Shown here one piece after another: positions 8,947 to 48,283 of a DNA stretch of 49,177 nt. The first letter of the stretch is position 1. Each line of letters opens with the position of its first letter. Position numbers and translations under genes: made by a program. The DNA lies in assembly GCA_001563995.1 (NCBI GenBank), contig LKMV01000001.1, positions 1 through 49,177 on the forward strand, given 5' to 3'. Below the pieces are notes generated by a model. The model was not told where the DNA came from, did not search any database, and saw only the letters and a program-made list of their open reading frames with translations. The DNA is from Nanohaloarchaea archaeon PL-Br10_U2g16 (lineage in GTDB: Archaea; Nanohalarchaeota; Nanosalinia; Nanosalinales; Nanosalinaceae).

Positions 8947-10149
8947 CTAAGTACCACCATATAGAATCTTTATACCTTCTTCATCGGAATCCTCAGACTC
9001 AACCAGATTTTTGAACTCTTCATAGCTTTCCTCTATCTCTTCTTCAGGCTCATACTCATCTGTCTTCTTCTTAGCCGCCAGGCCTCCTGCAACTGCTCCT
9101 ATGGCTCCAGCAGCTAAACCTCCTGTCAAAGCTCCGGCAACCCCGCCTAAAAAGTATCCTGCAGCTGCTCCCGCAGCCGATCCAGCTGCCGCGCCACCTA
9201 AAGCATACTTGCCTAAATCTCCGGATAGGATATCCTCTACATCATCAAGCTCGATATCATCCGGGCCCAGCACCAGATCTCCATCTTCAAAGTAGTTAAG
9301 AAGGCTCTCATCCCCTAGCTCTGTGCAGAGGGCATCGTACTGCTTGATGGTTATATCGCTGGCATCCGCTATAGTATAGAACTCTTCCTCAGGCTCTTCT
9401 CCATGGTCGTGATCACAGTCACCATGATCGTGTTCGTCGTGTTCTTCACCGCTTTCTTCGTGATCCTCACCATGGCTTTCATCCTCATGGTCGTCACCGT
9501 GGTCGTGACCTTCTTCACCTTCGTCTCCATGTTCATGTTCCTCATCTTGTCCTTCGTCATGGCCGTGTTCCTCTTCCTCATGTCCGTCTTCACCGTCATC
9601 GTGATCCTCACCATGACTTTCATCCTCATGGTCGTCACCATGGTCTTCTCCGTTATCCGCTCCTCCGGAGTACTCAAACTCTATCTCAGGAGTATACCTT
9701 TCCATACCATCGTTCTCCATCCTGTAATGGAAGCTGTAACTGCCATCCTCCTCAGGCTTCAAAGTATGTTCGTACATACTGTCTCCTTCCAGAACTTCAA
9801 CGCCGTCATCCGTTATAAGCTCCAGATCATCAAGCTCTAGAATTTTCTGCTCTTTATCCAGATAACTTTCATCGTCAAATATCTTTGGATGGCCCGAAGG
9901 TTCAATCTCAAGATCTATCTCTCCTTCTGCTTCAGCCTCCGTATCATGCCAATGTTCCGTATCACCGTGTTCATCGCTGTTACAGAGATCTGTGCTTTCC
10001 CCGGAGCCGAAAAGTTCGTCAGAGAATAACCTAAGGTCCGCAAGCCCTAGAGTATCTCCTAGATCCAACTCTCCTTCTTCATCCTTATCAAGCTTCCTGT
10101 GGTAAAGGATTCTGTCCTCTTCCTTGAAGTCTATAGCTTCCGAGCTCAT
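8947..10149 (-). CDS. Acidic His-rich repeat protein with C-terminal Gly/Ala glycine-zipper membrane segment
   Basis: Central HGDDHEDESHGEDH-type His/Asp/Glu repeats are encoded by a near-perfect DNA direct repeat of about 40 bp (9467-9505 and 9609-9647). A GGAAAGSAAGAAAGYFLGGVAGALTGGLAAGAIGAVAGGLAAKKK glycine-zipper-like hydrophobic segment lies near the C-terminus. Confidence 0.6.
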   Translation of the reverse strand: MSSEAIDFKEEDRILYHRKLDKDEEGELDLGDTLGLADLRLFSDELFGSGESTDLCNSDEHGDTEHWHDTEAEAEGEIDLEIEPSGHPKIFDDESYLDKEQKILELDDLELITDDGVEVLEGDSMYEHTLKPEEDGSYSFHYRMENDGMERYTPEIEFEYSGGADNGEDHGDDHEDESHGEDHDDGEDGHEEEEHGHDEGQDEEHEHGDEGEEGHDHGDDHEDESHGEDHEESGEEHDEHDHGDCDHDHGEEPEEEFYTIADASDITIKQYDALCTELGDESLLNYFEDGDLVLGPDDIELDDVEDILSGDLGKYALGGAAAGSAAGAAAGYFLGGVAGALTGGLAAGAIGAVAGGLAAKKKTDEYEPEEEIEESYEEFKNLVESEDSDEEGIKILYGGT

Positions 10150-11272: not shown

Positions 11273-11325
11273 TACTTTACAGAAAAAAGAAGAAAAAAGA
11301 GGGAAAACTGTTCTCTTCTTAATCA

Positions 11326-12018
11326 CTAAATATCGTCTGAGATTCTGTCCAGCAGGTAGATATCCAGGAATCCGAATCCTGCCTTACATAAGAACGGCAG
11401 AATTACATATCCTAGAGTTACCTGGTAGTCGGACAGTACTCCAAGCCCGTAGCCTCCTACATCACCTAGCGCCCAAATCGTTGGGTAGCTCAACCAGGTG
11501 AGGATTACGAAGAGGCCTAACTTGTGGTATTCTCTGTTGAGAGCGTCGTTTGACTCTGTAACTCTCATCAGAGGACCCCAGATCATATAGATCACTCCAA
11601 ACATGAACAGGCAGCTTATCCCGTAGAATGCCCATGTAGCTGCAGCGGTCTCGGCAACGTGTGCCAGAAGACCTGCTGCGATCAGCATGAACTGAAGACC
11701 CATCAACGAACCTACCATGCTCCAATCAGTTGAATCGCTCGCAATATAGGCGGAAAGCCCTAGAGCAAGAACGATCAACGGCGTGGAAACAAGCCAGTCC
11801 GCATAGAAAGCCAGTTCAGCTATAGAGGTGTCGTACAGGATGTTCATATACATCAGACCCGACCACGATACGATAAAGAAGTGGATCAGGTAGAACTTCT
11901 TCGGTACGTCACCCCAGTTCTTGGACATCCAGAGGAAAGCCACCGCTGACAGAGCCGTAGCAGCTATATAAGCTGCAATAGTCTGGCTCGTCAATGTCGC
12001 TAGCTCTGGAAGTACCAT
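11326..12018 (-). CDS. Microbial (type-1) rhodopsin, divergent
   Basis: Seven hydrophobic segments. Helix C reads AFYADWLVSTPLIVLALGL (compare BR ARYADWLFTTPLLLLDL and HR ARYLTWALSTPMILLALGL). Helix F reads WLSYPTIWAL (BR WSAYPVVWLIG). Helix G reads VILPFLCKAGFGFL with the Schiff-base Lys (BR VLDVSAKVGFGLILL). Confidence 0.85.
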   Translation of the reverse strand: MVLPELATLTSQTIAAYIAATALSAVAFLWMSKNWGDVPKKFYLIHFFIVSWSGLMYMNILYDTSIAELAFYADWLVSTPLIVLALGLSAYIASDSTDWSMVGSLMGLQFMLIAAGLLAHVAETAAATWAFYGISCLFMFGVIYMIWGPLMRVTESNDALNREYHKLGLFVILTWLSYPTIWALGDVGGYGLGVLSDYQVTLGYVILPFLCKAGFGFLDIYLLDRISDDI

Positions 12019-12048: not shown

Positions 12049-12060
12049 TTTATATATAAT
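12049..12060 (-). promoter_or_regulatory. TATA box for the rhodopsin gene
   Basis: On the minus strand TTATATATAAAG lies about 35-40 nt upstream of the rhodopsin ATG (12016-12018). Spacing fits an archaeal TATA with a short leader. Confidence 0.55.
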
Positions 12061-12098: not shown

Positions 12099-13613
12099 TT
12101 ACTCCTCAGATACCTCGATTTCAAACTCCGGATCAGTTACCGTGATCTCTCCAGCCACCTCTCCATCCTCTATTACAGAGATCTCTATTCCTTCTTCGGT
12201 CATCGGCTGTTCATCAGCTTCACCTATATCCTCGCCTTCTAAGAACTCATAAATCTCCTGGTCGGTCTCTGCAGTATACACATTGCTGCTCTCCGCACTT
12301 ACCATCGAGGTAAACGCAATTCCTGCACTGTCAATCGGCACAACCCTTACTTGCCAGTAAAGCTGATCGTCTACTATCACAGGTAGAGGTTCTATAGGCT
12401 CAAATCCTGTGTCAGAGTCTTCATCCGCCCAGTTGACCTTACTGTTTGCCTGTCTTACATAGTTAACCGCTCTCTCAGCCCCTATCAGACCTTGCTGTCG
12501 GTCCAGGGCGTATAATTCATAATCTCCGGTTGCTCCATCCACTGTCCATATCTCAAACAGTCCTGAGGCATCTCCATAAGGCTCAGTAGCTATAAACAGC
12601 TGAGGACCTTCATCCGTCATTATAGTAAACGGCTGATCGTTATCAAATCCTGGTAGCGGAGCCACCTCCAGCTGATCCTCATGGAAAAACCATTTGTTCA
12701 AAACCCCGTTCCTGTACTCCATAGCGGAAACGTATCTTCTTGCTAGATTGTATGGATATACCCTTTGATCCTGAAGTATTTCATTCTCGGAGACTTCTTC
12801 TGACTCTAAATACTCCATCTCTCCTTCTTCATCAGTCAGGACAGCACCTCCCCACTCAGGAACCATGAGAAGTAGAGGGAACCTAAACTCTAAGCTATAA
12901 TCCACATAAGGCGTTGCAATATAGTTTTCTCCATCATGCTCCATCATAAAGTGGTCCTCATAACTTTTCCAGTAGCTTTGCTTTCTCTGCTGCCAGTCTA
13001 TGTTATCTCTTACCCTCATACCTATACCCACATCCATATCTCCATCATTGTAGCTAATATCCGAGCTGCTCGACGTCATATCAATATAGGCCCCTCCTCT
13101 CTGGCTAATGGAAAGACTGTTGATAAAGCCATCAGGTCTAAGAGGATAAGACCACTGAGGCGTACCGTTTGAATCTATTGCAATATCGCTTTCCCCTAAC
13201 TTGTGACGTGGCTCCTGAAGGCTGTTTTGGGCGAACTCATCCGACACCGTTCTTGGAAGTATCCTAGGATTCTGGTTATCTGCATCCGGCAACGAAGAGA
13301 TCTCAGTCCTATCCTCAACCAGATCTTCTGCTATAGACATGTTTGTATATGCCGAGCTGAGAATAATTCCTACAAAGAAAAACCCAACGAACGACATCGT
13401 AAATGCCGAGCTACCTAGACCGTCCACATCAGTAAAACGGTAAGCCAAGAACGATAACACTGCACTAAGGATTAATGCCTGAATAATAAACGGATTAAGG
13501 TATATAAATAGAGCTAAAGGTTGAATAAAAGGTCTTATATAGTATAGGAACGCCACTGATAAAAATAAGAACAGAACCGAGCCGATCTTTAAATGTCTAG
13601 CTGAAAAATTCAT
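12099..13613 (-). CDS. Membrane protein with N-terminal TM bundle and large acidic extracytoplasmic domain
   Basis: The first 90 aa give 3-4 hydrophobic helices, followed by a soluble domain of about 400 aa with an acidic C-terminus. It lies immediately upstream of the rhodopsin on the same strand. Confidence 0.6.
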   Translation of the reverse strand: MNFSARHLKIGSVLFLFLSVAFLYYIRPFIQPLALFIYLNPFIIQALILSAVLSFLAYRFTDVDGLGSSAFTMSFVGFFFVGIILSSAYTNMSIAEDLVEDRTEISSLPDADNQNPRILPRTVSDEFAQNSLQEPRHKLGESDIAIDSNGTPQWSYPLRPDGFINSLSISQRGGAYIDMTSSSSDISYNDGDMDVGIGMRVRDNIDWQQRKQSYWKSYEDHFMMEHDGENYIATPYVDYSLEFRFPLLLMVPEWGGAVLTDEEGEMEYLESEEVSENEILQDQRVYPYNLARRYVSAMEYRNGVLNKWFFHEDQLEVAPLPGFDNDQPFTIMTDEGPQLFIATEPYGDASGLFEIWTVDGATGDYELYALDRQQGLIGAERAVNYVRQANSKVNWADEDSDTGFEPIEPLPVIVDDQLYWQVRVVPIDSAGIAFTSMVSAESSNVYTAETDQEIYEFLEGEDIGEADEQPMTEEGIEISVIEDGEVAGEITVTDPEFEIEVSEE

Positions 13614-40207: not shown

Positions 40208-43200
40208 TCAGACCGTAAACTGTTCAAGCCCGCTCTGACGGTTATCTTTACCGAATAAGCTTTGAATCGTCTTTTTCAGCACCAGAATCTCCTGTCTGGT
40301 GTAAGGTGAGATCTCATACTCATCTATCAGATCTTTCGATGGGTTCAAGTACTTCTTGATAGTCCCCTCAGAGATCGTAAGCAGTACCTTCCCGTCACAT
40401 TCAGGACACTGAGCCGTAGTCTTTCCTGTAGGAGCTATCGTCTGGTTGGTCATAGGCACACGTCTAAACTTGGTGTTACAGTCTACACAACGCATCTCCT
40501 GGGAAGAGAAAGATCTCAGATTTCCTTTAATATCCGGTATGAAATGTTTGTTCAGCAGAAGCTCCGCGACAGAGTCCTCATCCACACATTTCAGCTTTTC
40601 ACAGAGACCTAGCTGGGAAGACGTCTTATCACTCATCTCATCCAACGTTACGTACTCGCTCTGGTTTGGACCGTTCTCTACATTATCCGTGTCATGTGTA
40701 TAGCCATGTCTAAACGGCTCATCCGAATGGACGATATCCTCGCCTATCTGAATTTCTGTTTCAAGTTCCCATGGCTTTTTGTAATCCAAAGTTTCCTCGT
40801 AAAAGCTGAGAGGATATTCATCAACAGTCTCTATCGCCCATGCCTCATCGTCCACCTCATCAGCGTTCAAAACTGTTGAAAGGATTAATGGTGCGTCCAT
40901 GGTTCTTGCACCTGTCATGTCAGGCAGGAACTCTCTTGAAAAGTTTAAAAGTCCATCCATAAGCAGTAGAATAGCGTCCTCATCACCATCACAGTTGTTT
41001 GTGATTAAATTTTCAGATGTGAGGAAGTTATGTGTTTCTTCAACCTCTATATCGTACATAAACCTTTCCTCAGCTTTCTCTATTTCTTTCTCAGTTATTT
41101 CATCCAGCACCAAATCATTTTTAATTTCTATTCTTGGTTTTCTAGCCTTCTCATAATCTTTTTCTAACGTTTGTTGCTTTCTTTCCAGCTCAAATCCTAT
41201 TTCCTTACCAAACTTTACCGCAAAGGAAGATCTTATGTGTAGCTTGTGGGATGTAAATGTCTCCCCCTCATAATGTTCCTCTCCGTACTTGTCAATTAAT
41301 ATACCTCCGGCTTCTCTTTCAGAAGTTGAGAAACGGGCAAATATTCCAAATCTCTTCAAGAGAAAGTCCATATCATCCAAAAGCTCTCTTGAAACAGATG
41401 TAGCGTTTATATGTAGTCTACCGTCTTCAACAGCTCCATCTCCAGCGAAGTATGCTGAAAGCATATGTCTTACCTTCTCTTTAGGCAGAGATTTGACTAA
41501 CTGCGGTACCTTTTTAGTATGAGCTCCTTTTCCGGCTTCAAGGTTTTCAAACACCTCATAGATGATCCTAGAACTTATGGTTAGTATATGGTCTCCTTCA
41601 GATGGTTCAACACCGAATACTTCTACAATACTTTGTTCTATATCTTTTTTCAGTTTTTCTTCTCCAAAAGCGAAACATACCTGGTAAAACTCTTCTCCTT
41701 TTTGCTCTGATTTCCTAATATACCCTTCAGCGAGATAGTATCCTATCAACTTCATGAAATGCTTATCTATCTTTACTGTATTTTCTATCTCGATATTATC
41801 TCTTTTAGCTGCTAAAACTGCGTCATCCGAGATGCTATAATCTTTATCTGCGGCCTCCGACAAATTATTAAGAACTTCTATCGGCGTACTTTCTCTATAT
41901 CTGTAGTTGCTTAGAGTTTTTTTATTTGTGCCTATCTCATCCGAAGCTGATTTCAAGCCTCCTAAACTATCAATTAGCCTATTCAGCTCCTCGTTAGAAC
42001 CTCTTATACTTATATCCTCTGGCTCTATAAAATCAGTTATTCTTATTTTGAGTATATCATCTTCTTCTACAGGTATGGTTAATGGATTAATGACCTTATC
42101 TCCTTCATCTACCGCTCTAGCTTTTTTTATACCCTCTTCGGTCTTCACCTTGTGATCCGGGAACACTGATATCTTTCTGCCCGATCCTGTCTCGAAATGG
42201 ATTTTAAACTCTTGGGCAGGGGCTCTATACACCTTAGAAGCTTTAGAAGAGTTTAAAGAACCGTTCTGCTCCGAAACAACATCCAGATCAATACTTTTCT
42301 CTACAGTGCCTGTGCTGTCAGCCTCTTCAGCACCATCAGCCCTTTCAAATAACTCCTTTAACTTGATACTGTCCCCATTAGCAAGCTTAATTTTCTCATC
42401 TCCTGGTAAACAGTTCCTTCTTTTCGCTGCATGCCAGTAAGGGTGTGCATAAATCCCTTTAGCGTCTGTAAACCCTATAATCCTTCCTACTGTTCCTCCC
42501 GAGGTGTGGGGAGCCAGCCCGATTACGAGAGACCCTACAAGATCTTCTTTATCCTCTACATTATAGTAAGGCTCTAGACCGTAAAACTTCTCCAAAAGTT
42601 CATCCACAAAATCTGCTACACGCATAAAGTAGTCTCCTGCAGCTAAAGTATTGTCTGAGTCAGGTATGACTATGTCCTGAGGCTTCATGGCTAACACTTG
42701 GTCCTCTGATTCAAGAGGCTCTCCATCAACATCCTCAGTGTATCCAAGCTCTCTAAGCCTTTCTACTGATACAGATATTTCCTTAGGCTTGAAATGTGTC
42801 ATCGGTAGATCGGATGCATCGTATCTGACCGTTCCGTCCTTGTTTACGTATAAATCATACTTTTCTCTCAGAAATCCTTTTTCTATAGGCTCTACATGTT
42901 TATGTTTCCCGCTCATACCTCTAACGGATTTAAGCAGCTCAGGCATCTTTCTTATTCCAAGATTGTCCATAGCTCTATTGACAAGATCCTCTACCTCGAT
43001 ATCAGTATATTTGTATCTTGACAGTCTATCGTTTCCACAGCTATCACAAACCTCTTTTTCTTCTTTATGCTCTTTCTTACAGTCTGTACAGAACCATATC
43101 GGCTCAGTGGAAACGTTACAGTCCAGACAGTATGAGAAGTAGCTGTAATCTCCGCATTCTGGACATTTATTATGTATTATACCCTCTCCGTTAATTTTTC

Positions 43201-45130
43201 CATGTTCGTATGCAGCTGCCAGGTTTCTCATCCTACCACCTTCTTCTTTACCGCAAGGGAACAGAAGCTGTGGCTTTCCTTTAATTGTTCTTCTTTCAGC
43301 CTTCTCAGGACGGCCCATCCTTCCTCCAAGGTAATGTGGTGCTTGTTCTCTAAGCTCTACACCTGATACCTCCTCAATAAACTCGGGTATATCTTCAGCA
43401 GATTCAATATCATTCAAAGCATCTTCATTGTCCTGCTCCGGTCTCAAGAGAGCTTTTAACACCTTGTGATCATTTTTAGTAAGCTTTATCTCTCCATCCT
43501 CCATCTTATGTTGGAGAAGTATATCTTCAAGACATTCTTTAGTTTTTTTACCGGAAAGATCCTCGTTTTCCAGAGAGCTGTACAGTGCTTTAAACCTTTC
43601 AACAGTGGTCTCAGTCCAGTGGTAGGTCCATTTTGGATGGAGCGGTATACCGAGTTTTTCAGATATTTTAAACGCCTCCTCCGGGGTCGGATCCCTATCT
43701 GTAAAGTCCCTACCCAGCTTTACGTCTTTTTGTTCCACAGCTCTCCCCAGCTCTTTCTCCCACCACTCTTCAACATAAGGAGATGGTAAAAGTTTTTTAC
43801 CGTTCTCTACAAACTCTCCAAACGGCGTTAACATGTCTCCTAGGAACAGTATCTCCTCTATATCATCTTCATATTTGGTAACCATCTCCCTTGACTCCAT
43901 CCTCATCACATCACCGTTTTCCAGTTTTACAACAGGCGGATGTATAGATTCACAAGGCGTTCCAACCGTAGCTTTCATAGGATACTCTGTCTTCATCTGT
44001 GTTCCTATAGAAAGAAACCTTTCCGTTACCTCCATGGTAGCAGGATGGAAAGATGTAGCTGCAAGCCCGTTAGTCCTAGAGTGGCCGTATCTAAGTCTAA
44101 AGCCTCCTTTTCTTCCAGGATGGCCAAATACAGGTCTTCCAGCGGTAAGAGAGCCAAGGTATTTGTCCGATGGAGTGTATCCTTTTTCTTCCTCTTTACC
44201 ATCTTCCTCCTCTTCTTCGTCAGAATCTCCTGATGAGTGAATCTCTTTCTGAAGATCAAGATAACCTCCGACCCATTCCCAGTGCTCCAGTCCAAACTCT
44301 TCTCCCCATTTCTCTATACGTTTTTTTATCTTAGGGGCTTTAAGAGGTAGTCCATCTAGATATACCAGACACATACCTCCTCTTATTCTATTGCTTTGTA
44401 CCCTATCTAAGTCTTTGTAATTTGAAACATCCAGCTGCTCAGTAGGCGATCCTGTGACCTCTACAGGCACGTTTTCAGCGATGAACTCTGTCTCTTCTCT
44501 GGTCGGGTTGTACTGTTTGGCTGTAATTCTGTTATAGTAGTCTTCAACCTCTGCAGCATACCTTTTAACCACTGTATCGGAAGGTTTGAACTTATCAAGT
44601 CCGACACCTATCCTCACGTAATCAGATAGAAGCACGCTCATAGCTGATGCCGTTCCACCGGCAGATCTGATAGGTCCTGAGTAGTAAACCGCCAGATATT
44701 CTGTTCCATCGTTGTTTTCACGTATCTTTATTTCTCCAATTCCTTCTAAAGGCGCTGTGGTGATTCCTCCTGTCATGTAGGACACACCTACACGAATACC
44801 TGCGTTACAAGCCTTTTCTTTATCATCAAACTCGTAAAAATCCCCTTGTGCTATCTCTCTGGCGATCGAGAAAGCTACACGTTCATCATTTTTACCATAC
44901 TCATCCTCTAGCTCTCTTATCCTTTCAGGCACCCCTTGGTCTTCAAGCTCCGGAAACTTGGCGGCCATAACAAGCGAAGAAGCCTTTTCCGGAAGATCTG
45001 TTGCTACAGGGATATCTGCCTTTTTCTCCGGATCTTTAGACTGTGATCTTGCTTCGTTAGCAACCTCAAATGCTTTATCCGTCTGTTCAGATATTTTTTC
45101 AAAGTATTTTTCTGTTTCCATTACTTTCAC
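40208..45130 (-). CDS. DNA polymerase II (PolD) large subunit DP2, intein-containing
   Basis: The conserved DP2 catalytic block YAHPYWHAAKRRN|...|CDGDEDAILLLMDGLLNF is split by an insertion. The C-terminal zinc-finger clusters of DP2 are also present. Confidence 0.97.
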   Translation of the reverse strand: MKVMETEKYFEKISEQTDKAFEVANEARSQSKDPEKKADIPVATDLPEKASSLVMAAKFPELEDQGVPERIRELEDEYGKNDERVAFSIAREIAQGDFYEFDDKEKACNAGIRVGVSYMTGGITTAPLEGIGEIKIRENNDGTEYLAVYYSGPIRSAGGTASAMSVLLSDYVRIGVGLDKFKPSDTVVKRYAAEVEDYYNRITAKQYNPTREETEFIAENVPVEVTGSPTEQLDVSNYKDLDRVQSNRIRGGMCLVYLDGLPLKAPKIKKRIEKWGEEFGLEHWEWVGGYLDLQKEIHSSGDSDEEEEEDGKEEEKGYTPSDKYLGSLTAGRPVFGHPGRKGGFRLRYGHSRTNGLAATSFHPATMEVTERFLSIGTQMKTEYPMKATVGTPCESIHPPVVKLENGDVMRMESREMVTKYEDDIEEILFLGDMLTPFGEFVENGKKLLPSPYVEEWWEKELGRAVEQKDVKLGRDFTDRDPTPEEAFKISEKLGIPLHPKWTYHWTETTVERFKALYSSLENEDLSGKKTKECLEDILLQHKMEDGEIKLTKNDHKVLKALLRPEQDNEDALNDIESAEDIPEFIEEVSGVELREQAPHYLGGRMGRPEKAERRTIKGKPQLLFPCGKEEGGRMRNLAAAYEHGKINGEGIIHNKCPECGDYSYFSYCLDCNVSTEPIWFCTDCKKEHKEEKEVCDSCGNDRLSRYKYTDIEVEDLVNRAMDNLGIRKMPELLKSVRGMSGKHKHVEPIEKGFLREKYDLYVNKDGTVRYDASDLPMTHFKPKEISVSVERLRELGYTEDVDGEPLESEDQVLAMKPQDIVIPDSDNTLAAGDYFMRVADFVDELLEKFYGLEPYYNVEDKEDLVGSLVIGLAPHTSGGTVGRIIGFTDAKGIYAHPYWHAAKRRNCLPGDEKIKLANGDSIKLKELFERADGAEEADSTGTVEKSIDLDVVSEQNGSLNSSKASKVYRAPAQEFKIHFETGSGRKISVFPDHKVKTEEGIKKARAVDEGDKVINPLTIPVEEDDILKIRITDFIEPEDISIRGSNEELNRLIDSLGGLKSASDEIGTNKKTLSNYRYRESTPIEVLNNLSEAADKDYSISDDAVLAAKRDNIEIENTVKIDKHFMKLIGYYLAEGYIRKSEQKGEEFYQVCFAFGEEKLKKDIEQSIVEVFGVEPSEGDHILTISSRIIYEVFENLEAGKGAHTKKVPQLVKSLPKEKVRHMLSAYFAGDGAVEDGRLHINATSVSRELLDDMDFLLKRFGIFARFSTSEREAGGILIDKYGEEHYEGETFTSHKLHIRSSFAVKFGKEIGFELERKQQTLEKDYEKARKPRIEIKNDLVLDEITEKEIEKAEERFMYDIEVEETHNFLTSENLITNNCDGDEDAILLLMDGLLNFSREFLPDMTGARTMDAPLILSTVLNADEVDDEAWAIETVDEYPLSFYEETLDYKKPWELETEIQIGEDIVHSDEPFRHGYTHDTDNVENGPNQSEYVTLDEMSDKTSSQLGLCEKLKCVDEDSVAELLLNKHFIPDIKGNLRSFSSQEMRCVDCNTKFRRVPMTNQTIAPTGKTTAQCPECDGKVLLTISEGTIKKYLNPSKDLIDEYEISPYTRQEILVLKKTIQSLFGKDNRQSGLEQFTV
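40994..42412 (-). other. Intein in PolD DP2 (473 aa) with LAGLIDADG homing endonuclease domain
   Basis: The intein starts CLPGDEKIKLANGD directly after KRRN and ends ...HNFLTSENLITNN, followed by extein CDGDEDA. Internal LAGLIDADG motifs are LIGYYLAEGY and LSAYFAGDGA. The penultimate residue is Asn, not His. Coordinates come from locating TGT at 42410-42412 and the C-terminal AAC at 40994-40996. Confidence 0.85.
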
Positions 45131-46710
45131 ATAAAGTTCTTTACTCTGGTATTTCGGTTTTTGTAGTTAACTATAGTTACCTTTCCAGGATCAGGTTCGT
45201 GCCCTACACGTTTCTGGAAATCCGTCTGGGCCTGGAAGCTCGATGAATTTATTACATTAACACCTTTATAACTTTGATTGCAGTGGGAGTGGAAATGGCC
45301 GGCTACAAAGATATCCGGTTTTTCATAGATTACAAGCTGGTCTTCACCTTCAGGAGAGATAGGTGTATCTCCATACGTAGGAGCCAGGTGTCTCCTCTTT
45401 AGAAGATCTATCATCACATGTTGTGGCTCCTCGTAGGCTTTTTCCCTTAGATCCTGTATCTTATCGACATGATCATCAAATGAACTTCCGTGGTACATCA
45501 GATTTTTGATCCCTTTAGTCTCAAAGCCGTGTAGCCTTACCATCTGAGGGTTTTGAACTAGATGAACGTTGTTGTAGTCTCTTATATTTGGTAGGGCTTT
45601 TTCAGGAAGGATAGGCTGTGGTTCAGACAACCTGACAATATCGTGGTTTCCTGGAGAGGCTATAACCTGTATCCTTTCCGGCAGCTTATCCACCCATTCC
45701 TCAAAAAGCCTGTACTGTTCGTAGACATCGTTGACCCTGAGTTCTTCCTCCTGACCAGGGTATACACCTACACCTTCCACCAGATCACCGGTTATAACCA
45801 GATAACCGACATTCTTTGCATCTTCAGACTTTAACCACTCAGCAAACCTCTGAAGTTTGTTATACATTGTGTCCTTCGATCCGATATGTAAATCTGAAAT
45901 ATACGCTGCCTCTACATTGTCCTCAGTTGTCTTAACCCCGTCAGGAATAGGAAGATCAGGCCTCACAACTTTGTTAGCGTACAGAATATCTCCTCCCATG
46001 CTGCCTATAAATCCTAATGCCTCGTCTGGAACTATCATATCGCCTTCTCTCTCATCTACTAACACCTTAAACGTATCAGTCTTGTCCTCTATCTCGACAA
46101 TGTACTTTCCGGAGTTTGTGCTGTACTTATCTTTTACAAGACCTATAGCGGTAGCATCTTCTCCCTCATTTCTTCTTGACAGCCTGTTTAATGTAGTAGC
46201 CGCCTGTAACTCTTTCCTTCTCATCAAAAGCTTCTTCATCTTGTCGTAACGGCTGTTGTAGTACTCTAAAAACTCAGGAACATCTTTCTCTTCCTTTGTT
46301 ATTTCTTTCTCATCCATCACTTCTACCTTGGTTCTCATCCGTTTATTCCTATCTCCTTCATCCAGTATTTTAACCCCTTTAGTTCCTGACTCTTCCTTAT
46401 TCTTAGTATTTTTATCCTTATTAGAGTGTTCTTGTGGATCATCAACAGATTCTTCAGGATCTTCTGTTTCCATCTCTTCTTTCAGATCCTCTTTTAGATT
46501 TTCATTACTTTCAGACTCCTGTTTCTGCATCTCCTCAAGCTTCTGATCAATTTTTTCCCTTAAAGAATCCAACATGTCCTCAGTGATATACATAGGAGGT
46601 GAGTTCAGCTCTTTAATCGCTTCTATATCTTCCTCCGTCAGCGATTCAGCTGCTTCTTTCTCTACTATACATCCTTCTTTAGTCAACTGTTTAACTGCTG
46701 CCTTGTTCAT
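45127..46710 (-). CDS. DNA polymerase II (PolD) small subunit DP1 (calcineurin-like phosphoesterase)
   Basis: YISDLHIGSKD, ITGDLVEGVG, ASPGNHDIVR and FVAGHFHSHC motifs; a Lys/Glu-rich linker; a 4-nt overlap with the DP2 gene. Confidence 0.92.
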   Translation of the reverse strand: MNKAAVKQLTKEGCIVEKEAAESLTEEDIEAIKELNSPPMYITEDMLDSLREKIDQKLEEMQKQESESNENLKEDLKEEMETEDPEESVDDPQEHSNKDKNTKNKEESGTKGVKILDEGDRNKRMRTKVEVMDEKEITKEEKDVPEFLEYYNSRYDKMKKLLMRRKELQAATTLNRLSRRNEGEDATAIGLVKDKYSTNSGKYIVEIEDKTDTFKVLVDEREGDMIVPDEALGFIGSMGGDILYANKVVRPDLPIPDGVKTTEDNVEAAYISDLHIGSKDTMYNKLQRFAEWLKSEDAKNVGYLVITGDLVEGVGVYPGQEEELRVNDVYEQYRLFEEWVDKLPERIQVIASPGNHDIVRLSEPQPILPEKALPNIRDYNNVHLVQNPQMVRLHGFETKGIKNLMYHGSSFDDHVDKIQDLREKAYEEPQHVMIDLLKRRHLAPTYGDTPISPEGEDQLVIYEKPDIFVAGHFHSHCNQSYKGVNVINSSSFQAQTDFQKRVGHEPDPGKVTIVNYKNRNTRVKNFM

Positions 46711-46732: not shown

Positions 46733-47938
46733 TTAAATGTAAAACTTTTCTTCTACTAGTTCATTGACCTGTCTCCTTATATCTTCGGAAAGGTCAACGC
46801 TTATCTGTCTTGTTCTACCGTATCTCCCCTTTGAAATAACCTTTGCGTTTATCACGCCAAGCATATCCAGCTCAGATATAAGTCCTGATACTCTTCTCTG
46901 CGTTAACTCGGATACCTCAACCTTCTCACAGATCTGTTTGTACTCAGAGTACACATCCCCTGTGGCAATCTCTTCCTCATCCTCTACCATCTCAAGGATT
47001 GTATAGAGTACAAGCTTCGAATGTTTAGGCTGAGAACGTACAGTCTCTACTATTCTATCCCTTTCAATCTTTTCCTGAGCTTTATCTACATGTTCTACAG
47101 TGATGATATTTTTGCTGGATCTCTCAGCTAGCTCCCCGGCTACCCTTATAAGATCCAAAGCTCTTCTAGCATCACCGTGTTCCTGTGCCGCAAGAGCAGC
47201 ACATTTGGAAATTACACCATCCTCCATACAGTTCTCTACAAAAGCTCTATCAGTTCTGTCCTTAAGTATCTCCCTAAGCTCTATAGCATTATAAGGCGGA
47301 AATATAATCTCTTCTTCCGATAGAGATGATTTAACCCTTGAATCCATATACTCAGTGAAGTTAAGATCGTTTGAGATACCAAGAATAGATACTTTAGTTT
47401 CTTTCAAATCATCGTTAATCCTTGTAAGGTTGTATAGAAACTCATCTCCTACCTTCTTTACAAGAGCATCTATCTCGTCCAATGCTATAATTACTACTCC
47501 TTTCTGTCCTTTTAAGGCTTCAAAGAATCTGTTATAGACTTCATCAGTTGGTAGACCTGTACTCGGTACTTCTGCTCCTAACTGTTCTGCTAACCTTGCT
47601 AAAAGTCTGTACTCGGTGTCAGCTACTTTTTTCATCTTACAGTTAATGTATAATATGTTAAGATCTACCTGTTCGTCATCAGCAACCTCTCCTAGCTGAT
47701 CTGTAACGTGTTTTGTAATAAGCGTCTTTCCTGTTCCTACTGATCCATATACAAATACGTTACTTGGATCATCTCCTCTCAGGCTTGGAGCAAGTATTGA
47801 TGCTAGATTATCTATCTGTTGATCTCTGTGTAATATATTTTCAGGCTTCCAGTTGGTGGTTAAAGCATCCTTGTTATCGAAAAATGATTCTTTTTCAATA
47901 TAACTTGAAAACTTTGATTTCAGGTTAGTTTCTGACAT
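46733..47938 (-). CDS. orc1: Orc1/Cdc6 replication initiator
   Basis: Walker A VYGSVGTGKTLITKHV, Walker B IALDEIDAL and a C-terminal winged-helix region. Confidence 0.95.
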   Translation of the reverse strand: MSETNLKSKFSSYIEKESFFDNKDALTTNWKPENILHRDQQIDNLASILAPSLRGDDPSNVFVYGSVGTGKTLITKHVTDQLGEVADDEQVDLNILYINCKMKKVADTEYRLLARLAEQLGAEVPSTGLPTDEVYNRFFEALKGQKGVVIIALDEIDALVKKVGDEFLYNLTRINDDLKETKVSILGISNDLNFTEYMDSRVKSSLSEEEIIFPPYNAIELREILKDRTDRAFVENCMEDGVISKCAALAAQEHGDARRALDLIRVAGELAERSSKNIITVEHVDKAQEKIERDRIVETVRSQPKHSKLVLYTILEMVEDEEEIATGDVYSEYKQICEKVEVSELTQRRVSGLISELDMLGVINAKVISKGRYGRTRQISVDLSEDIRRQVNELVEEKFYI

Positions 47939-48283
47939 TTTTTCCCACCGGTAAAACTTTCTTGTTCAGATTTATCGCCCCGTGTATTGCATTTGAAATG
48001 TAGGTTATAAATACCTTTCCAATCGAACCCGGGGTTAGTCGAATACACACCCCTTGATTTCATATGGAGTATAGAAAACATCTCCATCTACCGATATAAC
48101 AGTGTTATATAATATATCATTGTTATTAGAAGAAGAAATAGAATGGAAATATAGTTCCATAGGAAACCGAGGGGAGGAAGAACTTACAGTTTTTTACGTT
48201 AAGACAGCCGGGATGAAAATAACCCCTTGGTTTCACTTGGAGAATGAAGTTTGAAAAAGAAAAAAATTGTTGTAAGGTTGAAA
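47939..48283. other. Replication origin (oriC): three ORB elements flanking an AT-rich DUE, upstream of orc1
   Basis: ORB-A 48046-48069 is CACACCCCTTGATTTCATATGGAG and ORB-B 48221-48242 is AACCCCTTGGTTTCACTTGGAG; both read as TTCCA...GAAAC...GGGG on the minus strand. ORB-E 48155-48177 (TTCCATAGGAAACCGAGGGGAGG) has the opposite orientation. The AT-rich stretch 48070-48154 between A and E is a candidate duplex unwinding element. Confidence 0.8.

What the first reader, a model, noticed from the sequence alone, without database searches (positions are those of the whole stretch)
11326..12018. Rhodopsin lacking the conserved Arg82 and Asp212 of the Schiff-base counterion complex
Aligning helix C (AFYADWLVSTPLIVLALGL) to bacteriorhodopsin (ARYADWLFTTPLLLLDL) places Phe where the near-universal Arg82 sits. 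It places Asp at 85, Ser at 89 and Ala at 96. Helix G (ILPFLCKAGFGF versus BR VLDVSAKVGFGL) retains the retinal Lys but has Pro at the Asp212 position. The stretch after the Asp85 equivalent resembles halorhodopsin (WALSTPMILLALGL). An Asp85-only counterion with no proton donor fits neither classic proton pumps (DTD/DTE), chloride pumps (TSA/NTQ) nor known sensory rhodopsins, and no transducer gene is adjacent. This could be a new functional variant or a sensory or regulatory photoreceptor. Note that my from-memory alignment of helix C and helix G could be off by a turn or so.
Basis: partly seen in the sequence, partly recalled or inferred. Interest (0 to 1): 0.75.

Follow-up and report, generated by a model that had tools for sequence, protein, structure and literature searches.

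The report
Nanohaloarchaeal xenorhodopsin, Phe-for-Trp variant

Summary
The 230-aa ORF at 11326-12018 (-) is an intact microbial rhodopsin. Against bacteriorhodopsin it has Phe71 at Arg82, Asp74 at Asp85, Ser78 at Thr89, Ala85 at Asp96, Pro208 at Asp212 and Lys212 at Lys216.

The interpretation as a new functional type is not supported. These substitutions define the xenorhodopsins of Nanohaloarchaea. NsXeR (PDB 6EYU) has the motif WDSAPK and was shown in 2017 to be a light-driven inward H+ pump. It is the best solved-structure match (E 8e-47), followed by Anabaena sensory rhodopsin and BcXeR.

The query also keeps the NsXeR-specific His-Asp proton-acceptor pair (His46/Asp219), Ser53, Tyr57 and Cys211. 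It groups with NsXeR in 200/200 NJ bootstraps.

The exact protein lies in GenBank WGS LKMJ01, a Siberian soda-lake brine metagenome. The source paper lists a xenorhodopsin on contig PL-BRINE-C117, which is probably this gene.

The only departure is Phe instead of Trp at the Arg82 position. A small clade of nine sequences shares it and is under strong purifying selection (dN/dS 0.05-0.10). Across the family this position also holds Tyr, Leu, Ile or Arg.

Most likely function: inward proton pump. This is an ordinary, low-novelty finding.

The parts
11326..12018 (-). Xenorhodopsin gene (230 aa), motif F71-D74-S78-A85-P208-K212, with H46, S53, Y57, C211 and D219
   Evidence: AlphaFold2 model with seven helices, mean pLDDT 92.4. 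Its top 15 Foldseek PDB matches are all BcXeR, NsXeR or ASR chains, TM 0.87-0.90.
11806..11808 (-). Codon TTC = Phe71. This is the position of BR Arg82 and NsXeR Trp73, and the only departure from the NsXeR motif.
   Evidence: All nine members of the subclade have Phe.
11797..11799 (-). Codon GAC = Asp74 (BR Asp85, NsXeR Asp76, the putative proton donor to the Schiff base in NsXeR)
   Evidence: invariant in alignment A1; role taken from PMC5609834.
11395..11397 (-). Codon CCG = Pro208 (BR Asp212, NsXeR Pro209), the xenorhodopsin hallmark
   Evidence: invariant in A1; PMC5609834.
11383..11385 (-). Codon AAG = Lys212, the retinal Schiff-base lysine (BR Lys216, NsXeR Lys213)
   Evidence: invariant.
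11881..11883 (-). Codon CAC = His46 (NsXeR His48). With Asp219 it forms the cytoplasmic-side Schiff-base proton acceptor pair.
   Evidence: role taken from PMC5609834.
11362..11364 (-). Codon GAT = Asp219 (NsXeR Asp220), partner of His46
   Evidence: invariant in A1.
12050..12059 (-). TTATATATAA, an archaeal TATA-box-like element about 36 nt upstream of the ATG, in the 80-nt gap after the upstream gene. It suggests the gene has its own promoter. Inferred, not tested.
   Evidence: Read directly from the sequence.
11281..11307 (-). T-rich tract (TTTTCCCTCTTTTTTCTTCTTTTTTCT) directly after the stop codon, in the gap to the convergent metallo-beta-lactamase-fold gene. Putative archaeal oligo-T terminator. 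Inferred.
   Evidence: Read directly from the sequence.

Best explanation
The ORF encodes a xenorhodopsin of a nanohaloarchaeon from a soda-lake brine. It belongs to the NsXeR-type subgroup of the ASR/xenorhodopsin family.

Most likely mechanism, by homology with NsXeR:
1. All-trans retinal is bound to Lys212 as a protonated Schiff base.
2. After photoisomerisation the Schiff-base proton goes to the cytoplasmic-side His46-Asp219 pair and is released to the cytoplasm.
3. The Schiff base is reprotonated from the extracellular side via Asp74, Ser53, Tyr57 and water.

The net effect is light-driven inward H+ transport. Pro208 (at the Asp212 position) and the uncharged aromatic Phe71 (at the Arg82 position) remove the outward-pump counterion and release machinery. 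Phe71 would act, as Trp73 does in NsXeR, as the hydrophobic plug between the active centre and the extracellular uptake cavity.

What is shown here: fold, family membership, conservation of every named residue except Trp73, and purifying selection. What is inferred by homology: retinal binding, transport direction and the role of Phe71.
For: - **Sequence match to solved structures.** The best match is NsXeR 6EYU (E 8e-47, 163 bits), then ASR (6e-30) and BcXeR (7e-24). The best non-xenorhodopsin scores 1e-15.
- **Structure.** The AlphaFold2 model has mean pLDDT 92.4 and seven helices. Its first 15 Foldseek PDB matches are all BcXeR, NsXeR or ASR (TM 0.87-0.90, rmsd 1.4-2.6 A).
- **Alignment.** It gives F71/D74/S78/A85/P208/K212 plus H46, S53, Y57, C211 and D219, against NsXeR W73/D76/S80/A87/P209/K213, H48, S55, Y59, C212 and D220.
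- **Published function.** PMC5609834 reports inward H+ pumping for NsXeR, HrvXeR and AlkXeR. It states that Pro209, His48, Asp220, Asp76, Ser55 and Trp73 are each functionally or structurally essential.
- **Phylogeny.** In an NJ tree of 156 sequences the query groups with NsXeR, excluding ASR, BcXeR and all 82 Asp212-bearing rhodopsins, in 200/200 bootstraps. The nine-member Phe subclade is monophyletic in 200/200.
- **Selection.** dN/dS is 0.045-0.10 among the Phe-clade genes wherever dS could be estimated.
- **Retinal pocket.** Residues W75, T79, W175, Y178, P179 and W182 are conserved.
- **Provenance.** The exact protein is in WGS LKMJ01, the PL-Br10 soda-brine metagenome. Supplementary Table 9 of that paper lists PL-BRINE-C117-cds14 as a xenorhodopsin in Nanohaloarchaea PL-Br10_U2g16.
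Against: - Phe71 replaces Trp73. In NsXeR, W73A abolishes pumping and W73R prevents folding.
- The indole NH of Trp73 ends an H-bond chain (Ile6-Thr199-w5-Ser13-Ser202-w3-Trp73) that Phe cannot make.
- The Phe clade also differs at other pocket and pathway positions: H120 for Q122 at the mouth of the uptake cavity, S135 for G133, W175 for F174 and Y204 for L205.
- Identity to NsXeR is only about 40%, so function is extrapolated.
- No experiment exists for this protein that I could find. I could not establish whether AlkXeR is this sequence.
- No Na+/H+ antiporter is adjacent here, unlike in a relative's locus.
- No retinal-synthesis gene was found in the window.
Confidence: 0.8

Rival explanations
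1. It is a xenorhodopsin-family photosensor that works like Anabaena sensory rhodopsin. It would signal through a soluble partner or photochromic switching rather than transport protons.
For: ASR is the second-best solved relative (E 6e-30). The query scores higher against ASR than NsXeR does (108 vs 72 bits). Its helix G (CKAGFGFLD) is closer to ASR (SKVGFSFLD) than to NsXeR (CKQVYGFLD). Xenorhodopsins were first predicted to be sensory (PMC3198991).
Against: ASR keeps Arg at the R82 position and has Ala where the query has His46. In 200/200 bootstraps the query groups with NsXeR to the exclusion of ASR. No transducer-like gene is in the window. All three nanohaloarchaeal XeRs tested were pumps.
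Confidence: 0.06
2. The Phe71 subclade is a functionally diverged xenorhodopsin. The loss of the Trp73 indole, together with His120 at the cavity mouth, would change or abolish inward pumping. Examples: a passive light-gated H+ leak, a different pH dependence suited to pH ~10 brine, or a non-transporting pigment.
For: W73A in NsXeR binds retinal but does not pump. Four coordinated substitutions distinguish the Phe clade from all Trp-type sequences examined: F71, H120, S135 and Y204. The clade is only ~40% identical to NsXeR.
Against: Phe, unlike Ala, keeps a bulky hydrophobic aromatic side chain. Across the His48-bearing xenorhodopsins this position holds W, F, Y, L or I, which argues for a steric or hydrophobic role rather than a Trp-specific one. 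The acceptor pair, the donor Asp, Ser53, Tyr57 and Pro208 are all conserved, and the clade is under strong purifying selection. Trp-type XeRs occur in the same soda lakes, so Phe is not simply an alkaline adaptation.
Confidence: 0.1
3. It is an outward proton pump or an anion pump whose motif is merely unusual.
For: Asp at the D85 position is shared with outward pumps.
Against: There is no carboxylate at D96, no Arg82 and no Asp212. Bacteriorhodopsin and halorhodopsin structures score E 1e-8 to 1e-15 against 8e-47 for NsXeR. None of the 82 Asp212-type sequences groups with the query in any bootstrap replicate.
Confidence: 0.02

Closest known systems
NsXeR, xenorhodopsin of Nanosalina sp. J07AB43 (PDB 6EYU; Shevchenko et al. 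2017, PMC5609834)
   Same: Seven-helix fold (TM 0.90, rmsd 1.6 A to the model). It shares Asp/Ser/Ala at the BR 85/89/96 positions, Pro at the 212 position and Cys-Lys on helix G. It also shares the His48-Asp220 acceptor pair, Ser55 and Tyr59. The host is a nanohaloarchaeon, and the gene stands alone with no transducer.
   Different: About 40% identity only. Differences are Phe71 for Trp73, His120 for Gln122, Ser135 for Gly133, Trp175 for Phe174, Met139 for Leu137 and Tyr204 for Leu205. No Na+/H+ antiporter gene is adjacent here.
AlkXeR, xenorhodopsin from Siberian alkaline brines (Shevchenko et al. 2017)
   Same: Its cited source is the study that produced this contig (Vavourakis et al. 2016 soda-lake metagenomes). 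It is a nanohaloarchaeal XeR and was shown to pump H+ inward.
   Different: At least four other soda-lake MAG XeRs are Trp-type. AlkXeR absorbs at 577 nm, red-shifted from NsXeR (565 nm). Ser135 at the BR Ser141 position in the query would be expected, from general colour-tuning knowledge, to shift absorption the same way. That is a lead, not a test.
Anabaena sensory rhodopsin (PDB 1XIO) and bacterial xenorhodopsins such as BcXeR (PDB 7ZMY)
   Same: Same family clade. They share Pro at the Asp212 position, a non-carboxylic residue at the Asp96 position, Asp at the D85 position and an Asp equivalent to Asp219 on helix G.
   Different: They keep Arg at the R82 position, have Ala instead of His46 and Ser instead of Cys211. 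Identity is 31-34%.
Bacteriorhodopsin (RDTDDK)
   Same: Fold, Schiff-base Lys, Asp85 equivalent and the Trp/Tyr/Pro retinal pocket.
   Different: The query lacks Arg82, Asp96 and Asp212. Identity is 24.5%, and the predicted transport direction is opposite.

Membership tests
Microbial (type 1) rhodopsin | Seven-TM Bac_rhodopsin fold with a Schiff-base lysine in helix G and a conserved aromatic retinal pocket | tested here: met
   Pfam PF01036 at E 8e-41. AF2 model with seven helices, pLDDT 92.4. K212 aligns with BR K216, and W75, W175, Y178, P179 and W182 are conserved.
Xenorhodopsin / ASR family | Proline at the BR Asp212 position | tested here: met
   P208. It is invariant in the 26-sequence alignment A1.
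Xenorhodopsin / ASR family | No carboxylate at the BR Asp96 donor position, with Asp kept at the BR Asp85 position | tested here: met
   A85 and D74.
Xenorhodopsin / ASR family | Phylogenetic placement inside the clade that holds ASR, BcXeR and NsXeR | tested here: met
   The three best distinct PDB sequence matches and the top 15 structural matches are all XeR or ASR. The query groups with NsXeR, excluding all Asp212-type sequences, in 200/200 NJ bootstraps. The whole XeR clade excludes Asp212 types in 125/200. These are NJ trees only; no ML tree was run.
NsXeR-type (nanohaloarchaeal) xenorhodopsins, motif WDSAPK | His48-Asp220 proton-acceptor pair on the cytoplasmic side | tested here: met
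   H46 and D219. Their role is taken from PMC5609834.
NsXeR-type (nanohaloarchaeal) xenorhodopsins, motif WDSAPK | Trp at the BR Arg82 position | tested here: not met
   F71, as in all nine members of its subclade. The 2017 paper says 'almost all' nanohaloarchaeal XeRs have Trp, so Trp is typical rather than strictly defining.
NsXeR-type (nanohaloarchaeal) xenorhodopsins, motif WDSAPK | Ser55 and Tyr59 next to the donor Asp, and Cys preceding the Schiff-base Lys | tested here: met
   S53, Y57 and C211.
NsXeR-type (nanohaloarchaeal) xenorhodopsins, motif WDSAPK | Light-driven inward H+ transport (CCCP-sensitive alkalinisation of the medium) | not testable with these tools
   Needs expression and a pH-electrode or electrophysiology assay.
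Bacteriorhodopsin-type outward H+ pumps (DTD/DTE) | Arg82, Asp85, Asp/Glu96 and Asp212 all present | tested here: not met
   F71, A85 and P208.
Halorhodopsin / Cl- pumps (TSA, NTQ) | Thr or Asn at the D85 position, with Arg82 and Asp212 retained | tested here: not met
   D74, F71 and P208. Halorhodopsin structures score E ~1e-8.
Haloarchaeal sensory rhodopsins I/II | Adjacent Htr (MCP-type) transducer gene, with Arg82 and Asp212 equivalents conserved | tested here: not met
   No transducer domain in any of the 44 main window ORFs scanned with Pfam. SRII structures score E ~1e-11.
ASR-type sensor | Co-transcribed soluble transducer (ASRT), with Arg at the R82 position | tested here: not met
   The neighbours are a 504-aa protein with no Pfam hit (upstream, same strand) and a convergent metallo-beta-lactamase-fold gene. 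The R82 position holds Phe. The 504-aa protein was not compared directly with ASRT.

The most novel reading that the evidence does not exclude
The nine-member Phe71 subclade is about 40% identical to NsXeR and carries the coordinated changes F71, H120, S135, W175 and Y204. It could be a functionally distinct xenorhodopsin type. Its extracellular proton-uptake path might be rebuilt around His120 instead of the Trp73 H-bond chain. That could give a different pH optimum suited to pH ~10 soda brines, a red-shifted spectrum, or altered or absent vectorial transport. It has not been characterised unless AlkXeR is a member.
Probability: 0.12. Interest if true: 0.4.

Novelty: new member of a known kind. 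Interest (0 to 1): 0.18.

Why it matters
It matters little for discovery.

There is modest value in two respects. First, natural variation at the Trp73 position (Phe here; Tyr, Leu or Ile in relatives), always alongside the His-Asp acceptor pair, helps to separate steric from H-bonding roles of that residue. Second, a probably red-shifted natural inward pump could interest optogenetics.

The physiological role of an inward H+ pump in a nanohaloarchaeon living at pH ~10 remains open. Cytoplasmic acidification or pH homeostasis is a plausible speculation.

Tried and rejected
- **AlkXeR sequence.** I looked for it to see whether this ORF is AlkXeR. Supplementary files of PMC5609834 are not held, and only that paper mentions AlkXeR. 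Unresolved.
- **BcXeR paper.** Kovalev et al. 2023 (NSMB) is not held.
- **Literature search.** A search for 'FDSAPK' or 'FDSAP' in a rhodopsin context found nothing relevant. Two 2026 XeR papers do not discuss the Arg82 position.
- **NCBIfam.** No model matched.
- **Conserved neighbours.** Neighbours of the Phe-type genes differ between loci. They include Na+/H+ exchangers, an ABC transporter, a DNA glycosylase and ribosomal genes. The 504-aa upstream protein here is unrelated to the 542-aa neighbour in L001. So there is no operon partner.
- **Exact-bipartition bootstraps.** Values for the larger clades were low (55/200 and 14/200) because a few divergent sequences move about. I replaced them with inclusion/exclusion tests.
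- **First bootstrap script.** It failed on a saturated distance formula and was fixed.
- **Horizontal transfer.** Gene GC is 49.4% against an ORF mean of 43.0% (z = 1.9, second highest of 44 ORFs). This is suggestive at most and I did not pursue it.
- **Pseudogene or chance ORF.** Rejected because the ORF is intact, the model is confident and dN/dS is about 0.05-0.1.

Full report
**1. What is there**

The window holds a complete 230-aa ORF at 11326-12018 on the minus strand. It matches Pfam Bac_rhodopsin (PF01036) at E 8e-41 over positions 4-221 of the 224-position model. No NCBIfam model matched.

An 80-nt gap separates it from the upstream co-directional gene. The gap contains a TTATATATAA element about 36 nt before the ATG. 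A T-rich tract follows the stop codon. These look like an archaeal promoter and terminator, but that is inference only.

**2. Checking the residue assignments**

I aligned the protein with four references:
- NsXeR, verified identical to 6eyu_A residues 1-228;
- ASR and BcXeR fragments recovered from the HMMER alignments.

Close and distant homologues were added. The result:

| BR position | Query residue |
|---|---|
| R82 | F71 |
| D85 | D74 |
| T89 | S78 |
| D96 | A85 |
| D212 | P208 |
| K216 | K212 |

A second alignment of 157 sequences gives the same columns. The codons are visible in the DNA.

**3. What it is**

- **Sequence.** Against all PDB sequences the best match is 6EYU, the inward H+ pump xenorhodopsin of Nanosalina (NsXeR), at E 8e-47. 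Next come Anabaena sensory rhodopsin (6e-30) and the xenorhodopsin BcXeR (7e-24). The best non-xenorhodopsin scores 1e-15, and halorhodopsins and bacteriorhodopsins score about 1e-8.
- **Structure.** An AlphaFold2 model built on 26 homologues has mean pLDDT 92.4 and seven helices. Its 15 best Foldseek matches in the PDB are all BcXeR, NsXeR or ASR chains (TM 0.87-0.90).
- **Known family signature.** Shevchenko et al. 2017 (PMC5609834) state that in xenorhodopsins Asp212 is replaced by Pro. [quoted passage not shown] NsXeR, HrvXeR and AlkXeR all pump protons inward.

**4. NsXeR-specific functional residues**

Against NsXeR, the query compares as follows:

| NsXeR residue | Query | Role or mutant result in NsXeR |
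|---|---|---|
| His48 | H46 | Schiff-base proton acceptor pair with Asp220; any substitution prevents retinal binding |
| Asp220 | D219 | D220N abolishes pumping |
| Asp76 | D74 | putative proton donor |
| Ser55 | S53 | essential for folding |
| Tyr59 | Y57 | links Asp76 to the uptake cavity |
| Pro209 | P208 | P209D makes the protein unstable; P209G markedly reduces pumping |
| Cys212 | C211 | precedes the Schiff-base Lys |

The retinal-pocket residues W75, T79, W175, Y178, P179 and W182 are also conserved.

The one motif difference is Phe71 for Trp73. In NsXeR, W73A binds retinal but does not pump, W73R does not fold, and the indole ends an H-bond chain to the extracellular surface. Phe keeps the bulk and hydrophobicity but not the H-bond.

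The Phe clade also has His120 for Gln122 (the mouth of the uptake cavity), Ser135 for Gly133, Trp175 for Phe174, Met139 for Leu137 and Tyr204 for Leu205.

**5. How unusual is Phe at this position?**

- **Close relatives.** A search of 5.8 billion proteins found three cluster representatives at 73-77% identity, all with Phe. It also found many Trp-type sequences at 39-47%.
- **Wider survey.** A full HMMER scan of 1.84 billion 50%-identity representatives gave 319 hits at E <= 0.001. Among the best 150, sequences with Pro at the Asp212 position carry W, F, Y, L, I or R at the Arg82 position.
- **Correlation with His48.** The non-Arg types almost always have His at the NsXeR His48 position. The Arg types (ASR, BcXeR and relatives) mostly have Ala there. 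Two further Phe-type representatives (P0046, P0062) lie outside the query's subclade.
- **Phylogeny.** In NJ trees of 156 sequences the nine-member Phe subclade is monophyletic in 200/200 bootstraps. The query groups with NsXeR, to the exclusion of ASR, BcXeR and all 82 Asp212-bearing rhodopsins, in 200/200.
- **Selection.** Nei-Gojobori dN/dS among the Phe-clade genes is 0.045-0.10 where dS could be estimated. dS is near saturation for most pairs and was not calculable for the pairs involving L005. The genes are under strong purifying selection, so this is not a decaying gene.

**6. Provenance**

The identical protein is recorded on one contig of 49,177 bp from GenBank WGS LKMJ01. LKMJ is the PL-Br10 metagenome of a hypersaline soda lake brine (pH 9.5) in the Kulunda Steppe, Siberia (Vavourakis et al. 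2016, PMC4766312).

That paper's Supplementary Table 9 lists 'PL-BRINE-C117-cds14, xenorhodopsin' in the MAG Nanohaloarchaea archaeon PL-Br10_U2g16, which has 42% GC. Three things fit:
- the window has 42.3% GC;
- the rhodopsin is about the 14th gene from the left end if two small ORFs are counted;
- the other MAG contigs carry names of the same form.

I therefore think this very gene was already labelled a xenorhodopsin in 2016. This is an inference, not a direct match.

Four other soda-lake nanohaloarchaeal MAGs carry Trp-type XeRs. Phe is therefore not simply an adaptation to alkalinity. AlkXeR, shown to pump inward and to absorb at 577 nm, comes from Siberian alkaline brines, and the paper cites this same study for it. 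I could not obtain its sequence.

**7. Genomic context**

The window is ordinary archaeal chromosome. It carries:
- GrpE-DnaK-DnaJ, RadA and RPA;
- M32, M42 and M48 peptidases;
- a MATE transporter and a Band 7 protein;
- primase-like Toprim;
- PolD small and large subunits, the latter with an intein;
- Orc1/Cdc6.

There is no Htr/MCP, no ASRT-like gene, no retinal-synthesis gene and no Na+/H+ antiporter. In the locus of a 76%-identical relative, two Na+/H+ exchanger genes lie next to the rhodopsin. This matches the remark in the 2017 paper. Neighbours differ in the other loci.

**8. Conclusion**

The interpretation as a novel functional class is not supported.

The gene is a member of the xenorhodopsin family, in the NsXeR-type subgroup. 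It most probably acts as a light-driven inward proton pump using the His46-Asp219 acceptor pair. The Phe-for-Trp replacement defines a small, conserved and apparently uncharacterised subclade. This is a minor variant of a known kind.

In a nanohaloarchaeon living at pH ~10, light-driven proton import could help to keep the cytoplasm less alkaline than the brine. That is speculation.

Noticed in passing
window 40208-45130 (-): The 1640-aa archaeal DNA polymerase D large subunit (DP2) is interrupted by an intein with a LAGLIDADG homing-endonuclease domain, at about aa 916-1378. The PolD small subunit lies directly upstream at 45127-46710.
   Followed up: no
window 46733-47938 (-) and the gap 47939-48283: An Orc1/Cdc6 gene lies next to the PolD operon. 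The 345-bp gap upstream of it is a candidate replication origin. It was not examined for origin recognition box repeats.
   Followed up: no
window 8947-10149 (-): A 400-aa extremely acidic protein with long His/Asp/Glu-rich repeats (HGEDHDDGEDGHEEEEHGHDEG...) and a Gly/Ala-rich hydrophobic segment near the C-terminus. It has no Pfam hit. It might be a surface-anchored metal-binding protein.
   Followed up: no
window 12099-13613 (-): A 504-aa protein with N-terminal transmembrane segments and an acidic C-terminal part lies directly upstream of the rhodopsin on the same strand, separated by an 80-nt gap. It has no Pfam hit. It is unrelated to the 542-aa neighbour of the rhodopsin in locus L001.
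   Followed up: partly
window 11326-12018 compared with the whole window: The rhodopsin gene has 49.4% GC against a mean of 43.0% (sd 3.4) for 44 ORFs. That is the second highest, z = 1.9. Ugalde et al. 2011 noted atypical codon usage for the Nanosalina xenorhodopsin and suggested recent exchange among Nanohaloarchaea.
   Followed up: partly
proteins P0024-P0062 and relatives; L008-L011: Across the xenorhodopsin family, a non-Arg residue (W/F/Y/L/I) at the BR Arg82 position goes together with His at the NsXeR His48 position. Arg types such as ASR and BcXeR mostly have Ala there; P0042 and P0051 (Arg plus His) are exceptions. A Leu-type member (P0194) comes from another Kulunda soda-lake metagenome, LFFM01.
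   Followed up: partly
P0005: A Trp-type, NsXeR-like xenorhodopsin (WDSAPK with H, C and D; 44-47% identical to the query depending on the alignment) is annotated as a hypothetical protein of 'Candidatus Dependentiae bacterium Noda2021' on a 1.2-Mb contig. This is an unexpected bacterial host for the nanohaloarchaeal type.
   Followed up: no
window 1-49177: ARAGORN finds no tRNA gene in the whole 49-kb window.
   Followed up: no
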